A DNA stretch of 64,000 bases from contig JANQNK010000007.1 of assembly GCA_028279595.1 (NCBI GenBank), forward strand, positions 25,214 through 89,213, written 5' to 3'. This DNA is from Thermoplasmatota archaeon. GTDB lineage: Archaea; Thermoplasmatota; JAKEGO01. The position numbers were made by a program, and so were the translations under genes. Below, in pieces: positions 1 through 7,014 of this stretch. Each line of letters starts with the position of its first letter. Position 1 is the stretch's first letter. The notes under the pieces are model-generated. The model did not search any database, was not told the origin of the DNA, and saw nothing but the letters and a program-made list of their open reading frames with translations.

Positions 1-86
1 ACGAGCTTGTTCTCGCTCTCCATCAGGGTGAGGGTCTTCTCTGTAACGTAAGGATGCAGAAGTATCTCATGCTCTATCAGAGCCAT
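1..86 (-). CDS. rpl23: 50S ribosomal protein uL23, N-terminal part (runs off window edge)
   Basis: Manual translation MALIEHEILLHPYVTEKTLTLMESENKL; the P-x-x-TEK motif is typical of uL23; directly follows rpl4 with a 10-bp overlap. Confidence 0.88.
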   Translation of the reverse strand, partial: MALIEHEILLHPYVTEKTLTLMESENKL

Positions 87-838
87 CCGGCCACCTCCTT
101 GAGAGCGGATTCGGTGAAGACCGTGAGCCTGCCCGGATCGCCTCCGGGGGCGAGGTCCTCGATGGAAACGCGTGAGACCGGAACGATGTCCAGCCCGGGG
201 ATGTTCCCGACCGCGTTCTGGACCGCTGCGTCCTCGCTGGTGATGACGAGAATGGACCTTGGCGTCCTGAAGCGCCTGGCGCGCATCTTCCCGCGCCCGG
301 CCCTGATGTGACGGCCCTCCTTGGCCCTGACGACGTCGTCGGAGATCCCGACCTTCTCGAGGAAGGCCATGGTGTCCTTGACGGTCGTGAACGCCTCGAA
401 CTTGTCCTCGACGACCACCGGAAGGGTGACCTTGTCGCCGAAGCGATGGCCGCGCTCCGCGACCGCTTCCTTGTCCGCCGTGGCAGCTAGAGCCGACCGG
501 CGTGCAAGGCGCCTCTCCTTGCGGTTGATCTTCTTGGTCCAGATCTTCTCGACCTTCGGGGGATGCGCCCTGCGTCCGCCCACCGTGAGCGGAGCCTCGG
601 CGCCCCTCCTCGTGCCCTTGATCCTCGGGTTCCTGGCAGTGCCGCGTCCCTTTCCCCAGTGGTCGACCGAGTGCTTCCTTCCGGCCATCCTGTCGGAGCC
701 GTAGGGCTGCCTGCGGTTCGCGCGGGCTGCGGTGACGCTGCGCCTTATGAGATCGATCCTGAGAGGGGTCTCGAAATGGTCGGGGAGATCGACCTTCTTC
801 TTGGACTTTCCCGCCGTCGAGTAGAGGTTGACCTTCAC
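77..838 (-). CDS. rpl4: 50S ribosomal protein uL4 (archaeal L4e type)
   Basis: ANRRQPYG, WGKGRGTARNPR, GGRRAHPPK, RAGRGKMR and LAPGGDPGRLT motifs; canonical L3-L4-L23 order; GTG start. Confidence 0.97.
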   Translation of the reverse strand: MKVNLYSTAGKSKKKVDLPDHFETPLRIDLIRRSVTAARANRRQPYGSDRMAGRKHSVDHWGKGRGTARNPRIKGTRRGAEAPLTVGGRRAHPPKVEKIWTKKINRKERRLARRSALAATADKEAVAERGHRFGDKVTLPVVVEDKFEAFTTVKDTMAFLEKVGISDDVVRAKEGRHIRAGRGKMRARRFRTPRSILVITSEDAAVQNAVGNIPGLDIVPVSRVSIEDLAPGGDPGRLTVFTESALKEVAGWL

Positions 839-842
839 GTTA

Positions 843-1829
843 TCATCGCCCCTGCTTGGACTCCACGGAGACGTAGCTGATCTCGACCTCCACGTCCTTT
901 CCGTGATAGCGCGTGGCGTCCCTCAATCTGACGAGCCTCTTCGCGGGACCCGGGACGGACCCCTTGATGAGCATGTAACTGTTCTTGATGTTGCCGTAAT
1001 GGAGGAAACCGCCGTTCGGCGTGACCTCCTCGCCGTTCTCGCCGGTCTTCAGGACGACCTTGTTGTACTCCGTCCTCTGGTGGTATCCCATCTGACCGGC
1101 CTGGGGAACGGACGACATGACCCAGGTCCTCCATGGACCGAGGGTACCGATCATCCTCCTGTGCTTGCTGTTCTTGTGAACGAGGAGCTTGACGCCCCAG
1201 CGCTTGACGACTCCCTGCCAGCCCTTGCCGCGGGTGACGGCTGCGACGTCGACGACCGTACCGGGAGTGACGATCCCTTCTGCGGTGATCTCCTTTCCGA
1301 TGAGCTCCTTCGCCAGCACCATCCGGTCCTCCATGGTCCCCCCGCCGATGCGGAGCTCCATGATCTCCGGGACCTTCTTCGGGATCCCGCTCACGAGGAA
1401 CGGCTGTGTATGGGCAATGAGCCTCAGATCGTCAATGCTCTCCTTCTCTATCCTCTTCCAGGACTGCTTCGGCTTCGCAGGTATCGGCAGCCTCTTCTTG
1501 AGGTGAGGGTCGAGCTTCTTGGCCCAGACCTCGGAGAGCGTCTTCAGACCGTACGGGGAGTCGACGTAGGCCCTGACCCCGACGACCACCATGGGAGGTG
1601 TCTCGAGAACTGTGACGGGCACGCGGATCTCCTGACCCCGTGTCGTGCTCTTCGCCCTCTTGTCCTCCATGAAGACGTGTGTCATTCCGGCCTTGTAACC
1701 GGCAAAACCCTGTACCTTGGCCTGGCTACCCCCCTCCGGCCATGATCTGAACCGGGGGGTTTCGCGCCTTGCTCTCTTTCTCGGAGAGTAGGCCATAGAG
1801 CCTCTTCTGGGATGATGGTTCTTCGGCAT
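843..1829 (-). CDS. rpl3: 50S ribosomal protein uL3
   Basis: PRRGSMAYSPRKRA, GFAGYKAGMTH, GKGWQGVVKRWG and QAGQMGYHQRTEYNK motifs. Start placed at ATG 1829 behind SD-like AAGGTGGA; the ORF-track start at 2042 is over-extended. Confidence 0.97.
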   Translation of the reverse strand: MPKNHHPRRGSMAYSPRKRARRETPRFRSWPEGGSQAKVQGFAGYKAGMTHVFMEDKRAKSTTRGQEIRVPVTVLETPPMVVVGVRAYVDSPYGLKTLSEVWAKKLDPHLKKRLPIPAKPKQSWKRIEKESIDDLRLIAHTQPFLVSGIPKKVPEIMELRIGGGTMEDRMVLAKELIGKEITAEGIVTPGTVVDVAAVTRGKGWQGVVKRWGVKLLVHKNSKHRRMIGTLGPWRTWVMSSVPQAGQMGYHQRTEYNKVVLKTGENGEEVTPNGGFLHYGNIKNSYMLIKGSVPGPAKRLVRLRDATRYHGKDVEVEISYVSVESKQGR

Positions 1830-1858
1830 ATGTCCACCTTTCCGTGGTTTGGATATAT

Positions 1859-1955
1859 GGCTCCCAAGACCGTTGCGCTTCCTGGCCGCCCATAACTCAC
1901 GGGTGAGTGGGCACCATTGTAGGGATATTTCCCTTGGCGCATGGTCTAAGGAGTC
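1859..1955 (-). ncRNA. Structured 5' leader of rpl3 operon (candidate ribosomal-protein autoregulatory leader)
   Basis: Lies between the TATA box and rpl3; four complementary helices form a three-way junction (see findings). Confidence 0.6.
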
Positions 1956-1973
1956 CGAACAAACGGATTGGGG

Positions 1974-1980
1974 TATATAA
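1974..1980 (-). promoter_or_regulatory. TATA box of rpl3 operon
   Basis: TTATATA on the minus strand, about 20-25 nt upstream of the start of the structured leader. Confidence 0.65.
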
Positions 1981-2023
1981 TGGTTACGATTGGCTACGTT
2001 TGGAAGGAAAGACCCCGTGAGAG

Positions 2024-2141
2024 CATGGGTGAGACGGGTCAATGGTCCCTCAAAGGCATTGGTGATACGCGTTGAGGCACCCGTAGTGACATTGGTGATA
2101 TGCGTCGATGAACTCGCTCCGGCGCTAGTGAGACGCGTTGA
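2024..2141 (+). repeat. Degenerate tandem array, 33-bp period, 19-bp conserved core (consensus CATTGGTGAKACGCGTYGA)
   Basis: Cores start at 2024, 2057, 2090 and 2123, separated by 14-nt variable linkers. Confidence 0.85.
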
Positions 2142-2170
2142 GGCCGGACCGGACCGGCCTCGAGCGCGTC
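2128..2170 (+). repeat. Dispersed hairpin element, copy A
   Basis: gtgagacgcgttga-ggccggaccggaccggcc-tcgagcgcgtc. Confidence 0.8.
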
Positions 2171-3813: not shown

Positions 3814-6800
3814 TCAGGTCAGATAGGTCCCGCAGTTCGAACAGAACCTCTCGTCCTCATCCAAAGAAGCGTTGCATTCCGGACACTTCCGGTCCACCTC
3901 ATCCTCGGGGATCTCGACAGGAGTCACCAATCCCTTGTAACCCTTCCCACCACGGTCGTAGTAGAGGTCATCGTCCTCCTCTTCCGCGGGTTCCGGCTCA
4001 GGTTCAGGTTCGAACTCAGTTTCGGGTGGCGGTCTGGCAAACTGCTCATGCTCGGGTCTCGGTCGCTCGTAAGGACTTGCAGGGGGAGGACCGGTCGGAC
4101 CTCCTCCGCGCTCGTATCCTCGTGCCTCCCATTCGCCCTCTTTCGGGTCCATCCTCTCCCGAGGCCGGCCGAACTGCTCCCTATCGTAGAAGTGTTCAGC
4201 ATGGTCCCCTCGAGGCGGCCCACCGACAGGCTCGGTGTTCCACTCTACGTCAGCATCCTCGGGCGGGGGTGCATGGCCAGGCAGCCTGTCATGAGGTGAA
4301 CGGCGGTCACGGTACTCCTCCTCGGGAGGCCGTCTCGGATCGGGATCGCCCGGTTTCCAGCCCGGTGGTGGTCGATACATTCTCTCGTCCGGCGGAGGAC
4401 CGCGCATCCGTCCCTCCTGCTCGGCCTTCTTCCTCTCTTCCTCCTCCTTCCGTTTCTTCTTCCGGCTGGAGGCGGCCGCGATCGCGCCGATGACGACGAA
4501 GATGGTGGTCAGGACGAGTCCGAGCATCAGGGGGTTCTGCGGAAGGCCTGTGAAGAACTCGATGATCTGGTCGGCGATCCCCTTCTGCTCCTCTTCATCT
4601 GGATCCTCCTCACCCGGAGGTTCGGCCTCAGCGTCGATCTCGAGCATAGCGGTGAACGCCTCACTGAAATTTCCGTCATCGTCGGTCACGACGAGGGTAA
4701 TGGTATGTGTACCGACACGGATGTCAGATTTGGTGAATGAGGGATTGGGCCCGTCGTAAAGTTCATCTCCGAGGAGGGTCGATGTCCAGAAGTAGTTCTC
4801 GACCATTCCGTCGACATCGGTTGCGGATGCTGTGAAGGTGATCGTCTGCCCGTACACTGCGGGATTCGGATCGAACGTGATACTGTTGATGACCGGAGGA
4901 ATGTTGCCTCCGCTCGGGACGCTCTTGACCTCGAGCTCCTCGGTGACCCACTCGCTCCAGGCTCCGTCATCGTCCTGGCATCGGAAGGAGATGGTGTGGT
5001 TGCCGATGGAGAGGGTATCGGTCATAGTGGTATTATCAAGACCGTCGTAGAACTCCCCATCGACCGAGGAGGACCAGACATATCGTTCAACAGTTCCATT
5101 GTCGGTCCCGTTACCCTCGAAGGTCACGTTGAAGGTCTCGTAGGCCGGGGAAGGTGTGATGGACGTGATGGATGCGACTGGCGGATCGTTGGTATCGTTC
5201 GTCTGATTCGATTCATGGTTAATGGTGATCATAGCGGAGTCAGGTTCGCTCCAGTCCCCGTCGTCGTCCTGAACGGTAAACGATATTTGATGCTCACCGA
5301 CGGAGAATTCTGAGTACTCAGTTCCATTCGATGTACTATTGTAAAACTCTCCATCAAGATCGGAAGTCCAAACGTATCGGACGACCGTACCATCAGCGTC
5401 AGTACCGTTGCCGAGAAAGGTAATGTTCTGGCCGAAGCCACCCGATGACGGGTCGATCATAACAATGATACCGACCGGAAGTTCGTTTGGTGTACGGGAC
5501 CCATTTGGGACCATCAGCGGAAAGTTGTCCTTACTTGCTCCCTCGATCTCATAAGGGGTGTCCCCCACCCCGTCTCCGTCCGTGTCATTCCCTAGATAGT
5601 CGGACCAGTAGTTGCCCTCAAAACCGTCATCCCAATCGTTGTACCTGTGGGCATATGCCTGTGGAGAAATTCCGCTGTCCATGAAAACGTTGTCAACGAC
5701 CACGTTATTAGAACTATAGTACGCGAGACGAAGTGCCTCCTTTCCGTTCCCACAAAAGGTATTATTCTCTATCAGATTGAAACTCCCTGTATTGATTTCC
5801 ATCCCGACAAGATGATTGTCTACGAAAGATGAGTTTAAAATCATACTGTTATCGGCGTCCATGTATACTGCTTCAGAGTACCAGCTATCGTACGAATTCC
5901 TTCGGAAAGTGCATCCATCGATAGTAATGTTCGTAGCATCGTCCGCGTATATGGCATACTCACCATTGTCCCGCATGATACTATCCTGAATATTGATATC
6001 CAAGGAATTGTATAGGTATATCCCGACCCTAGCTTCCGATATTTCACACGAGGCGATCGAAAAATTGTCCGAAAAACCGATCTGGACTGGGAATCCGCCC
6101 GAATTGGAGTTCCAACCGAATGCCGTTATTTCTGTGCAATTCCCGATAAGATAATGTGCATTCGGATCGTCCATCAGAACATTGGCTTCATTTCGATGAT
6201 AGTAGAAGGGATTTCCATTAACAGTAGTATTTCCTATGTTGTGGGTGACCCAATGGTCGATCTCGTCGCCTAGAATACGTATTCCTGCAGAGTCGAATGT
6301 ACAGTCAATGATCGTTTCGTTCAGACTCCTCCAGATCTCTATGCCGTTGTACTCGAAATCACAGTTCTTAACCGTAATTTCATCTTCGGCAAGAGTTATC
6401 GCGGCATTGGAATTTCCTTCAAATGTACAGTCCACAACCTGGCTGGATTGGGTGCTTCCCTGGATTTCAATATCTGTTACAGTGTTATTATAGAATCTAC
6501 ATCCTATGATGCTTGTAGATTCCGCGAGCATGACAAACATGCCCAGCTCCGCGTTGCCATAAATTGCACAGTCCTGGATGATCACACCTGATACATGAGA
6601 AATATCAATGCCGGCAGTAGACTTGGTCTCGTCGCCGCCACCCTTGACCCCTAGGTCACGAATAGATACCCACGCGGATACCTCGATGGTCGTATCAGAA
6701 CCTTGACCATCGATAATCGTATTTGTGGAACCAGACCCATTGATGTATAGAGGTTTCCCAATGTAAACGTTTTCCTCGTACGTCCCTGGCCGAATCTTGA

Positions 6801-6969
6801 TCTCGTCAAAATCAGTGGCATTCGCTATCGCATCCCCAATGGTCGTGTAATCGACTCCACCCCCTCCGTCATCATCCACGATGATCGTTTCCCCGACAAC
6901 TCCGTTAGGTGTGAATATCAAGACCACAGCGACAAGCATCACGACGACGAGGAGCCTCCTGGCAGACAT
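3814..6969 (-). CDS. Membrane-anchored surface protein: NosD/CASH beta-helix, three PKD-like Ig modules, TM helix, Pro/acidic cytoplasmic tail, C-terminal zinc ribbon
   Basis: Signal peptide; parallel beta-helix repeats ending GNYWSDYLGNDTDGDGVGDTPY; repeated YVWxSxxDGEFY modules; TM helix followed by RKKKRK; CPECN...FCSNCG. Confidence 0.85.
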   Translation of the reverse strand: MSARRLLVVVMLVAVVLIFTPNGVVGETIIVDDDGGGGVDYTTIGDAIANATDFDEIKIRPGTYEENVYIGKPLYINGSGSTNTIIDGQGSDTTIEVSAWVSIRDLGVKGGGDETKSTAGIDISHVSGVIIQDCAIYGNAELGMFVMLAESTSIIGCRFYNNTVTDIEIQGSTQSSQVVDCTFEGNSNAAITLAEDEITVKNCDFEYNGIEIWRSLNETIIDCTFDSAGIRILGDEIDHWVTHNIGNTTVNGNPFYYHRNEANVLMDDPNAHYLIGNCTEITAFGWNSNSGGFPVQIGFSDNFSIASCEISEARVGIYLYNSLDINIQDSIMRDNGEYAIYADDATNITIDGCTFRRNSYDSWYSEAVYMDADNSMILNSSFVDNHLVGMEINTGSFNLIENNTFCGNGKEALRLAYYSSNNVVVDNVFMDSGISPQAYAHRYNDWDDGFEGNYWSDYLGNDTDGDGVGDTPYEIEGASKDNFPLMVPNGSRTPNELPVGIIVMIDPSSGGFGQNITFLGNGTDADGTVVRYVWTSDLDGEFYNSTSNGTEYSEFSVGEHQISFTVQDDDGDWSEPDSAMITINHESNQTNDTNDPPVASITSITPSPAYETFNVTFEGNGTDNGTVERYVWSSSVDGEFYDGLDNTTMTDTLSIGNHTISFRCQDDDGAWSEWVTEELEVKSVPSGGNIPPVINSITFDPNPAVYGQTITFTASATDVDGMVENYFWTSTLLGDELYDGPNPSFTKSDIRVGTHTITLVVTDDDGNFSEAFTAMLEIDAEAEPPGEEDPDEEEQKGIADQIIEFFTGLPQNPLMLGLVLTTIFVVIGAIAAASSRKKKRKEEEERKKAEQEGRMRGPPPDERMYRPPPGWKPGDPDPRRPPEEEYRDRRSPHDRLPGHAPPPEDADVEWNTEPVGGPPRGDHAEHFYDREQFGRPRERMDPKEGEWEARGYERGGGPTGPPPASPYERPRPEHEQFARPPPETEFEPEPEPEPAEEEDDDLYYDRGGKGYKGLVTPVEIPEDEVDRKCPECNASLDEDERFCSNCGTYLT

Positions 6970-7014
6970 GATTATCCCACCGGCCAATCGCACTCTGGAT
7001 AGTTAACGATTTCG

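What the first reader, a model, noticed from the sequence alone, without database searches (positions are those of the whole stretch)
1859..1955. rpl3-operon 5' leader folds into a three-way junction resembling a permuted 23S rRNA uL4-binding site
Seen: the minus-strand RNA GACUCCUUAGACC-A-UGCGC-CA-AGGGAAAUAUCCCU-ACAA-UGGUGCCCACUCAC-CC-GUGAG-UUA-UGGGCGGCCA-GGAA-GCGCA-AC-GGUCUUGGGAGCC starts just downstream of the TATA box. It forms P1 (CUCCUUAGACC/GGUCUUGGGAG), P2 (UGCGC/GCGCA), P3 (GGG-6nt-CCC) and a long P4. Known: r-protein operons are often autoregulated by rRNA-mimicking leaders, and uL4 binds the H18-H19-H20 junction of 23S domain I. As I recall, that junction has GGAA leading into H19 and a GGG-6nt-CCC H20. 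Inference: this leader has the same elements in circularly permuted order (P4=H18, GGAA, P2=H19, P3=H20), so it may be an undescribed Thermoplasmata uL4-responsive leader.
Basis: partly seen in the sequence, partly recalled or inferred. Interest (0 to 1): 0.72.

Follow-up and report, generated by a model that had tools for sequence, protein, structure and literature searches.

The report
Conserved folded leader before archaeal rpl3
The untranslated start of this archaeon's main ribosomal-protein messenger folds into a three-armed RNA that is conserved across the Thermoplasmatota and absent from RNA databases; it probably lets a ribosomal protein limit production of its own operon, but the proposed likeness to the uL4 site of 23S rRNA does not hold up.

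Summary
Window 1859-1955 (-) folds as described (MFE -43.5 kcal/mol, z -3.8), starts about 20 nt after a TATA box and ends 29 nt before the uL3 start codon; uL4 follows.

It is a conserved element. A covariance model finds exactly one copy per genome in 88 of 151 Thermoplasmatota genomes, always directly upstream of uL3 where I checked (35 of 35). It also finds one in 74 of 80 independent uL3 loci. Covariation is strong: 88% of cells paired against 64% when shuffled, and 25 of 29 pairs show double changes.

No Rfam family matches. The closest known element is the L4-Archaeoglobi r-leader candidate (RF03135). It has the same operon context, the same P1-P2-junction-P3-P4 layout and a similar P3 (GGG-CAAU...CCC). 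However, its model scores nothing in Thermoplasmatota, and my models find it only weakly.

The permuted H18-H20 mimicry is not supported:
- In this organism's own 23S rRNA, GGAA lies in the H19 loop.
- GGG-N-CCC hairpins are common in that rRNA.
- The most conserved part of the leader (ACC-A-GAC / GUC-AC-GGU) has no counterpart there.

The uL4 ligand is inferred from precedent only. Earlier reports of this scan reached the same conclusion on other genomes.

The parts
1974..1980 (-). TATA box (TTATATA) of the promoter that drives the leader and the rpl3 operon
   Evidence: Sequence. The block AACCATTATATACCC is identical in the sister genus G001. In 94 relatives a TATA-like heptamer most often starts 30 nt before the start of the model.
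1859..1955 (-). The structured leader RNA (97 nt): P1, an internal loop, P2, and a three-way junction carrying P3 and P4
   Evidence: Fold with z -3.8. CM hits of 73.7-98 bits. Covariation across 94 sequences. RNAalifold on alignments not fitted to the model recovers the helices.
1943..1953 (-). P1, 5' strand (CUCCUUAGACC); the inner ACC is invariant in the family
   Evidence: The outer pairs covary through 5-6 pair types; C12 and C13 are invariant in 89 of 89 distinct sequences.
1861..1871 (-). P1, 3' strand (GGUCUUGGGAG); the inner GGU is nearly invariant
1942..1942 (-). Bulged A between P1 and P2 (A in 88 of 89). It faces the invariant AC at 1873-1872.
   Evidence: Column counts.
1872..1873 (-). 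Invariant AC on the 3' side of the P1/P2 internal loop
   Evidence: A240 and C241 are present in 89 of 89 sequences.
1937..1941 (-). P2, 5' strand (UGCGC; family consensus GACRY)
   Evidence: Compensatory changes, for example AU:41 against GC:41 at one pair.
1874..1878 (-). P2, 3' strand (GCGCA; family consensus RYGUC)
1921..1934 (-). P3 hairpin (A-GGG-AAAUAU-CCC-U). Most relatives have GGG-CAAU-extra stem-A-CCC instead.
   Evidence: GGG/CCC is nearly invariant; CAAU is conserved in 65-88 of 89 sequences.
1883..1916 (-). P4, a long variable hairpin with a U-rich 3' bulge (UUAU here; UUUU in the consensus)
   Evidence: All 12 modelled pairs show changes on both sides. The U columns hold U in 79 and 73 of 80 sequences.
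1879..1882 (-). Joiner between P4 and P2 (GGAA here; family consensus N-R-A-R)
   Evidence: The equivalent joiner is CAA in G001 and UC in G002.
1830..1858 (-). Spacer holding a small hairpin (CCAC 1847-1844 with GUGG 1837-1834) and the Shine-Dalgarno-like AGGUGG (1839-1834). It also holds ATATAT (1858-1853), which could be a second TATA box.
   Evidence: The spacer folds with z -2.1 here, but spacers are not structured across the family.
843..1829 (-). uL3 gene (rpl3), first gene of the operon
   Evidence: Pfam PF00297, E 1e-89. Relatives align from residue 1-3.
77..838 (-). uL4 gene (rpl4), second gene and candidate ligand
   Evidence: Pfam PF00573, E 1e-40.

Best explanation
This is the Thermoplasmatota form of an archaeal ribosomal-protein leader (r-leader). 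It is a roughly 100-nt RNA at the very 5' end of the rpl3-rpl4-... messenger.

It folds into P1, a conserved 1x2 internal loop (ACC-A-GAC / GUC-AC-GGU), P2, and a three-way junction. The junction carries a GGG...CCC hairpin (P3) and a long variable hairpin (P4).

It is most likely a distant relative of the L4-Archaeoglobi leader candidate (Rfam RF03135).

Inferred mechanism: when a ribosomal protein encoded in the operon is made in excess over free rRNA, it binds the conserved loop and P3 surface. By precedent this protein would be uL4. Binding would lower expression of the operon by hindering translation initiation at rpl3, with the downstream genes following through coupling or messenger decay.

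Shown here: the structure, its conservation, its single-copy link to rpl3, and its position just downstream of a conserved TATA box (so presumably at the 5' end of the transcript; the start was not mapped). Inferred: that a protein binds it, which protein, and the repression itself.
For: - Fold z -3.8.
- One hit per genome in 88 of 151 Thermoplasmatota genomes at E <= 0.01. In all 35 genomes where uL3 had been located, the hit lies 15-150 nt upstream on the same strand.
- 74 of 80 uL3 loci fetched by protein alone carry it.
- 88.1% of cells are paired, against 64.3% in shuffles (0 of 500 reach the observed value) and 30-45% with slid partners. 25 of 29 pairs show double changes.
- RNAalifold on MAFFT alignments recovers P1-P4.
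- Unpaired nucleotides are invariant (A14, A240, C241, CAAU), as expected for a ligand-binding surface.
- The TATA box sits at a fixed distance.
- No terminator-like site lies between the leader and rpl3.
- RF03135 has the same architecture and the same operon context.
- Models R2 and R3 place end-to-end alignments exactly on RF03135 elements in 4 and 6 of 12 haloarchaeal loci, where about 0.05 such coincidences are expected by chance.
- Precedent: E. coli uL4 represses the S10 operon through its leader (PMC10931766).
Against: - No binding or expression data exist for this element or for RF03135, whose authors rated it borderline and chose L4 only by precedent (PMC7247131).
- The distance to the start codon varies from 10 to 193 nt.
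- The spacer is not generally structured (median z -0.66) and the SD region is not consistently paired, so simple occlusion of the ribosome-binding site cannot be the mechanism everywhere.
- Sixty-three of the 151 genomes gave no hit, and two of their rpl3 loci that I read by eye (family f3, L038 and L039) have only a short upstream region with no leader, so the element is dispensable.
- The cross-family CM scores are individually insignificant (E 0.25-10). RF03135 scores nothing here.
- In this window an ATATAT stretch 24 nt before the AUG could give a second transcript without the leader.
Confidence: 0.7

Rival explanations
1. One reading: the three-way junction is a circularly permuted copy of the 23S H18-H19-H20 junction (P4=H18, P2=H19, P3=H20), and uL4 recognises it by rRNA mimicry.
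For: - The cyclic order of helices is topologically consistent.
- P3 (GGG-6nt-CCC followed by UA) resembles H20 (GGG-UGAAAGC-CCC followed by GU).
- The family joiners N-R-A-R and N-R-Y-A-W loosely resemble the archaeal rRNA joiners GAA and GUA.
- One relative has GGGUGAUUAUCCC, close to the H20 consensus GGGUGAUAGCCCC.
- From general knowledge, E. coli L4 binds domain I near H19-H20.
Against: - In this organism's own rRNA, CAA leads into H19 and GGAA lies in the H19 loop.
- The leader has no H19-like UGGAAY hairpin.
- The H19-H20 joiner is 8 nt in rRNA and 3 nt in the leader.
- At least eight distinct GGG-N5-8-CCC stretches occur in the own 23S rRNA.
- P3 is an extended hairpin in most members.
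- The invariant P1/P2 loop is left unexplained.
- RF03135 has 0-2 nt joiners with no GAA or GUA.
- CM R1 found no hit in the 23S locus even at E <= 10.
Confidence: 0.15
2. It is an autoregulatory leader, but the ligand is another protein of the operon (uL3, uL23, uL2, or uL24 further down the superoperon) and not uL4.
For: - The element always directly precedes uL3, not uL4.
- No rRNA site resembling the conserved core was found to point to any particular protein.
- Experiments failed to show L4 binding for the B. subtilis leader (quoted in PMC7247131).
Against: The only validated ligand for a leader of this operon type is uL4 in E. coli. Nothing found here favours another protein.
Confidence: 0.3
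3. It is a separate small RNA gene, or only a stabilising 5' structure, that happens to sit before rpl3 and does not sense any ribosomal protein.
For: - It has its own TATA box.
- In this window ATATAT (1858-1853) could serve as a second promoter for a leaderless rpl3 messenger.
- The distance to the start codon is variable.
Against: - No terminator-like site or T-run follows it here.
- G+C-rich relatives (G001, L083, L136) show no second TATA box in the spacer.
- It keeps a strict one-per-genome link to rpl3 across about 25 families.
- Invariant unpaired nucleotides argue for a specific partner.
Confidence: 0.08
4. It is a riboswitch that senses a small molecule.
For: A three-way junction with conserved joiners is a common aptamer design.
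Against: It is confined to the ribosomal-protein operon, with one copy per genome. No Rfam riboswitch matches. No expression platform is conserved.
Confidence: 0.04

Closest known systems
L4-Archaeoglobi ribosomal protein leader candidate (Rfam RF03135; Eckert and Weinberg 2020, PMC7247131)
   Same: - It lies upstream of rpl3-rpl4-rpl23-rpl2 in Euryarchaeota.
- The layout is identical: P1, internal loop, P2, then a three-way junction with P3 (GGG...CCC with an internal loop and a distal stem) and a long variable P4 (SS_cons; consensus).
- P2 is similar (GACGC/GCGUC against acGCGc/gCGCgu), as is the 5' side of P3 (GGG-CAAU against GGGU-CAAU).
- My models align end to end on RF03135 elements at the right place in 4-6 of 12 loci.
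   Different: - The RF03135 model gives no hit in the window, none in 20 related loci at E <= 10, and none over its cut-off in 151 Thermoplasmatota genomes.
- My models score RF03135 members at only 8-14 bits.
- The P1/P2 loop differs: A opposite AC with CC/GG closing pairs here, against a 2 x 4 loop there.
- The joiners are longer here (3, 5 and 4 nt against 1, 1-2 and 0-1 nt).
- About half of RF03135 examples overlap a methyltransferase gene, whereas this one is intergenic with its own TATA box.
- The published alignment holds no Thermoplasmatota-type sequences.
E. coli S10 operon leader regulated by uL4
   Same: It is a structured 5' leader of the operon that encodes uL3 and uL4. This is the functional precedent for feedback by uL4, with 23S domain I competing for the protein (PMC10931766).
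   Different: The fold is unrelated, and it acts by NusA-dependent attenuation plus translational control. That operon starts with S10, and the leader is confined to some Gammaproteobacteria. No terminator-like element is present here.
23S rRNA H18-H19-H20 junction (the uL4/uL24 site of domain I)
   Same: It is a three-way junction containing a GGG-loop-CCC hairpin and purine-rich joiners.
   Different: The helix order matches only after circular permutation. The H19 loop, the H19-H20 joiner and the H20 loop all differ. The conserved core of the leader has no equivalent.

Membership tests
Rfam RF03135 L4-Archaeoglobi | Scores at or above the family's gathering threshold (34.5 bits) with the Rfam covariance model | tested here: not met
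   There was no hit in the window at the gathering threshold or at E <= 10, and none in 20 related loci. None of 151 Thermoplasmatota genomes scored over the cut-off, and the weak hits lie elsewhere. Positive control: three haloarchaeal loci score 67-72 bits.
Rfam RF03135 L4-Archaeoglobi | Lies upstream of, and on the same strand as, the rpl3-rpl4 operon | tested here: met
   uL3 and uL4 follow directly. The same position holds in 35 of 35 checked genomes.
Rfam RF03135 L4-Archaeoglobi | Architecture: P1, internal loop, P2, three-way junction with P3 (GGG..CCC) and a long P4 | tested here: met
   Compare the RF03135 SS_cons and its consensus with the structure used for R2/R3 and its covariation.
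Rfam RF03135 L4-Archaeoglobi | Detectable sequence-and-structure homology by a reciprocal covariance-model search | tested here: inconclusive
   R2 and R3 align over their full length exactly on RF03135 elements in 4 of 12 and 6 of 12 loci. The scores are only 8-13.6 bits, E 0.25-10. The co-location is far beyond chance, but no single hit is significant.
Rfam RF03135 L4-Archaeoglobi | Conserved sequence of the P1/P2 internal loop | tested here: not met
   The loop here is ACC-A-GAC / GUC-AC-GGU. RF03135 has (((((--((((((...))))))----))))) with cgg / aAcc.
   The hairpin is present in the window. However, at least eight distinct such stretches occur in the own 23S rRNA, and P3 is extended in most members.
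   In the own 23S rRNA, CAA leads into H19 and GGAA is in the H19 loop UGGAAC. The leader joiner is N-R-A-R: CAA in G001 and UC in G002.
   This needs EMSA or filter binding with recombinant protein.
Autoregulatory ribosomal-protein leaders (general class) | A conserved, covarying structure in the 5' UTR of a ribosomal-protein operon | tested here: met
Autoregulatory ribosomal-protein leaders (general class) | A protein encoded in the operon binds the leader and represses expression | not testable with these tools
   No experimental data were found for this phylum.

The most novel reading that the evidence does not exclude
This leader, RF03135 and similar leaders noted in other archaeal phyla form one ancient, pan-archaeal r-leader superfamily before rpl3. 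Its P3 hairpin and junction are a circularly permuted mimic of the 23S H18-H20 junction and are read by uL4 (or uL24). That would make it the most widespread cis-regulatory RNA of Archaea and a natural example of a permuted rRNA mimic.
Probability: 0.12. Interest if true: 0.8.

Novelty: new variant of a known kind. Interest (0 to 1): 0.55.

Why it matters
Very few cis-regulatory RNAs are known in Archaea, and none has been validated for the main ribosomal-protein superoperon.

This element is present in most sampled Thermoplasmatota, including gut methanogens (Methanomassiliicoccales) and many uncultured Thermoplasmata lineages known only from MAGs. It has much cleaner evidence than its closest known relative: it is intergenic, has its own promoter and covaries strongly. 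It therefore strengthens the case that RF03135-type leaders are real. It also extends them to a second phylum and gives a well-defined RNA for testing which archaeal ribosomal protein feeds back on the operon.

There is a practical point too. In this window the uL3 reading frame stays open through the whole leader, so gene callers can wrongly extend uL3 over it.

Tried and rejected
- **Rfam and tRNA scans.** Rfam at the gathering threshold and at E <= 10, on the window and on 20 related loci, found nothing relevant. A tRNA/tmRNA scan found none.
- **MAFFT across families.** An alignment of nine distant leaders misaligned the 5' half, so I iterated covariance models instead.
- **Core loop in rRNA.** I searched the own and two related 23S rRNAs and the own 16S rRNA for the two-strand core (CC-A-N4 / N4'-AC-GG). 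Only scattered matches between distant, unrelated positions turned up (3-5 per rRNA), and none recurs at the same place in the three 23S rRNAs.
- **P3 as a mimic of 23S GGCCAAUC.** Rejected. The Rfam structure shows that AAUCUA there is a single-stranded joiner after a hairpin.
- **K-turn in the P1/P2 loop or in P3.** Rejected by eye: no tandem G.A pairs.
- **H46-like hairpin recalled from E. coli.** This organism has UGG-AC-GG..CC-G-ACCA, which is only a weak likeness.
- **A shared SD-sequestering hairpin or structured spacer.** Not seen across the family.
- **An intrinsic-terminator-like site.** None.
- **The CCAUGCG / CGCAACGG match to the own 16S rRNA.** These strings are specific to this genome's P2, whose family consensus is GACRY/RYGUC, so the match is coincidence.
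- **Stelzl et al. 2003 on L4 mimicry.** The paper is not held in the library.

Full report
**What is in the window.** On the minus strand the sequence runs as follows.
- TTATATA lies at 1980-1974.
- A 29-nt spacer follows, with an AGGUGG Shine-Dalgarno-like site.
- The uL3 gene is 1829-843 (Pfam PF00297).
- The uL4 gene is 838-77 (PF00573).

The same fold persists when the spacer and the first codons are included.

**Conservation.**
- The only other genus of the same family (G001) and a genus of the same order (G002) carry the same four helices before uL3.
- They keep them through compensatory changes in P1, P2 and P4, while the GGAA joiner becomes CAA and UC.
- I built covariance models iteratively: R1 from 3 sequences, R2 from 19 and R3 from 94.
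- R2 finds exactly one hit per genome in 88 of 151 sampled genomes of the phylum at E <= 0.01.
- For all 35 genomes in which uL3 had been located independently, the hit lies 15-150 nt upstream on the same strand.
- This count is a lower bound. G029 has the motif by eye but fell below the filters.
- Among 80 uL3 loci fetched by protein similarity alone, 74 carry the element just before uL3. Their record titles name Thermoplasmata, Thermoplasmatales, Methanomassiliicoccales and Methanogranum MAGs. Several of the six without a hit are cut off close to the gene.

**Covariation.**
- On the 94-sequence alignment (89 distinct rows), 88.1% of cells form standard pairs, against 64.3% after shuffling (0 of 500 shuffles reach it).
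- With slid partners the figure is 30-45%.
- Twenty-five of 29 pairs show changes on both sides, and the covariation score is 0.519 against 0.157.
- That alignment is fitted to the model. As an independent check, RNAalifold on plain MAFFT alignments of the three closest sequences and of eleven Methanomassiliicoccales-type sequences predicts P1, P2, P3 and P4 de novo.

**Family consensus.**
- 5' side: P1(...ACC)-A-P2(GACRY)-N3-P3(GGG-CAAU-optional stem-A-CCC).
- Then N-R-Y-A-W and P4 (long and variable, with a U-rich 3' bulge).
- 3' side: N-R-A-R-P2'(RYGUC)-AC-P1'(GGU...).
- The invariant positions are the CC/GG pairs that close P1, the bulged A, the AC opposite it, the central C-G pair of P2 (with the A-U pair before it nearly so), and GGG/CCC of P3.
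- Conserved unpaired bases of this kind point to a specific ligand.

**Promoter and 3' context.**
- A TATA-like heptamer most often starts 30 nt before the start of the model. In the window the distance is 25 nt.
- With the usual archaeal geometry (general knowledge), the transcript therefore begins at the base of P1.
- The distance from the element to the start codon ranges from 10 to 193 nt, with a median of 59.
- The spacer is not more structured than chance across the family (median z -0.66), and the SD region is not consistently paired.
- No terminator-like site is present.
- The structure alone therefore does not reveal the mechanism.
- In the shortest versions P1 abuts the SD, which favours steric block of initiation. 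In longer ones an effect on messenger stability or elongation is equally possible.

**Closest known element.**
- Rfam 15 gives no hit.
- Reading the supplement of Eckert and Weinberg 2020 (PMC7247131) showed that their L4-Archaeoglobi candidate (RF03135) has the same layout. It occurs before rpl3-rpl4 in Halobacteria, Archaeoglobi and Methanomicrobia.
- That layout is P1, an internal loop, P2, P3 of the form GGGU-CAAU-stem-ACA-CCC, a long P4, then P2' and P1'.
- I fetched haloarchaeal examples by a P3 pattern and confirmed them as RF03135 at 67-72 bits.
- My models place full-length alignments exactly on those elements in 4 of 12 loci (R2) and 6 of 12 loci (R3). R3's best hit overall is one of them.
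- About 0.02-0.05 such coincidences are expected by chance, so the likeness is real.
- The scores are only 8-13.6 bits, however. Conversely, RF03135 scores over its cut-off in none of 151 Thermoplasmatota genomes.
- The published alignment contains no sequences with this family's core strings and no mention of Thermoplasmata. A literature search found no description for this phylum.
- I therefore file it as a new variant, probably a distant homologue, of a known but unvalidated kind. It is not a member of RF03135.

**The mimicry proposal.** Aligning the organism's own 23S rRNA to the Rfam model gives this order.
- The H18 stem CCU.
- The joiner CAA.
- H19 as C-U-CUCC[UGGAAC]GGAGG.
- An 8-nt joiner with a mini-hairpin.
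- H20 as GGG[UGAAAGC]CCC.
- The joiner GUG and the closing AGG.

The permuted mapping is topologically coherent, and two joiners are loosely alike (R-A-R against GAA, R-Y-A against GUA). Five points count against it.
- GGG-N5-8-CCC stretches occur at eight or more places in the same 23S rRNA.
- P3 is an extended hairpin in most members.
- The most conserved part of the leader has no counterpart in H18-H20.
- The sister family lacks those joiners.
- CM R1 found no hit in the 23S locus even at E <= 10.

I also looked for any other rRNA counterpart of the core loop and of GGG-CAAU and found none that survives inspection. The own 23S rRNA is cut at a contig end and lacks domain VI. Two complete 23S rRNAs from relatives were used to cover it. 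I give mimicry of H18-H20 about 15%.

**Ligand.** Nothing here discriminates among uL4, uL3, uL23, uL2 and uL24. uL4 is favoured only by the E. coli precedent (PMC10931766), which was also the stated basis for naming RF03135.

**Earlier reports of this scan.** Earlier reports on other genomes describe the same leader and name the same closest relative. I reached RF03135 independently before reading the follow-up verdicts. I had by then seen two first-reader notes that call it a candidate archaeal r-leader.

**Verdict.** This is a real, phylum-wide, structured rpl3-operon leader that RNA databases do not list, and it is related in design to RF03135. Its function as a feedback operator is inferred (about 70%), uL4 as the ligand is unproven (about 35-40%), and the permuted H18-H20 mimicry is not supported.

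Noticed in passing
window 2024-2144: Three overlapping 55-nt copies at 33-nt spacing. By eye they resolve into four copies of a ~22-nt unit (CATTGGTGATACGCGTTGAGGC-like). They lie 45-170 nt upstream of the rpl3 TATA box, between it and the divergent small ORF at 2138-2476. They could be an array of transcription-factor sites. They are not seen in the G001 upstream region.
   Followed up: partly
window 843-2042 (-): The uL3 reading frame stays open upstream through the whole leader (a 399-aa ORF from TTG 2042). Gene callers could therefore annotate an N-terminally extended uL3 that swallows the RNA element. Relatives align from residue 1-3 of the 328-aa protein.
   Followed up: partly
window 1853-1858 (-): ATATAT lies about 24 nt before the uL3 AUG and could be a second TATA box giving a leaderless rpl3 messenger that bypasses the leader. 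It is not conserved in G001.
   Followed up: no
L064, L073, L075, L077, L078, L155, L172, L087 (spacer between the leader and uL3): Relatives that group with loci titled Methanomassiliicoccaceae and Methanogranum share a second conserved hairpin (GCGAGG-UUAGCGAAGAGAC-CCUCGC) just before the SD. It may be a lineage-specific add-on to the leader.
   Followed up: no
L061 about 1320-1360 (G000 contig 11, about 158 nt upstream of the 23S 5' end): The sequence UCCAUGCGGGGCAUUCCGGGGCGCAAAG before the 23S rRNA repeats this genome's P2 strings (CCAUGCG ... CGCAA). It is probably chance or part of the pre-rRNA processing stem.
   Followed up: no
G000 contigs 11 and 18 (L061, L174): The 16S and 23S rRNA genes lie on different contigs (unlinked, as I recall is usual in Thermoplasmata). 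The 23S gene is cut at model position 2706 by the contig end.
   Followed up: no
G005, G016, G020, G023, G030, G032, G039, G043, G056: In several families of the phylum uL3 matches in two pieces within one open frame of up to 471 aa. This suggests an insertion of some tens of residues (more in G016) after about residue 100-120.
   Followed up: no
window 3814-6993 (-): A 1059-aa ORF with a signal/anchor-like N-terminus, repeated domains, a Pro/Glu-rich tail and a C-terminal CxxC...CxxC motif. It is probably a surface protein. No family search was run.
   Followed up: no
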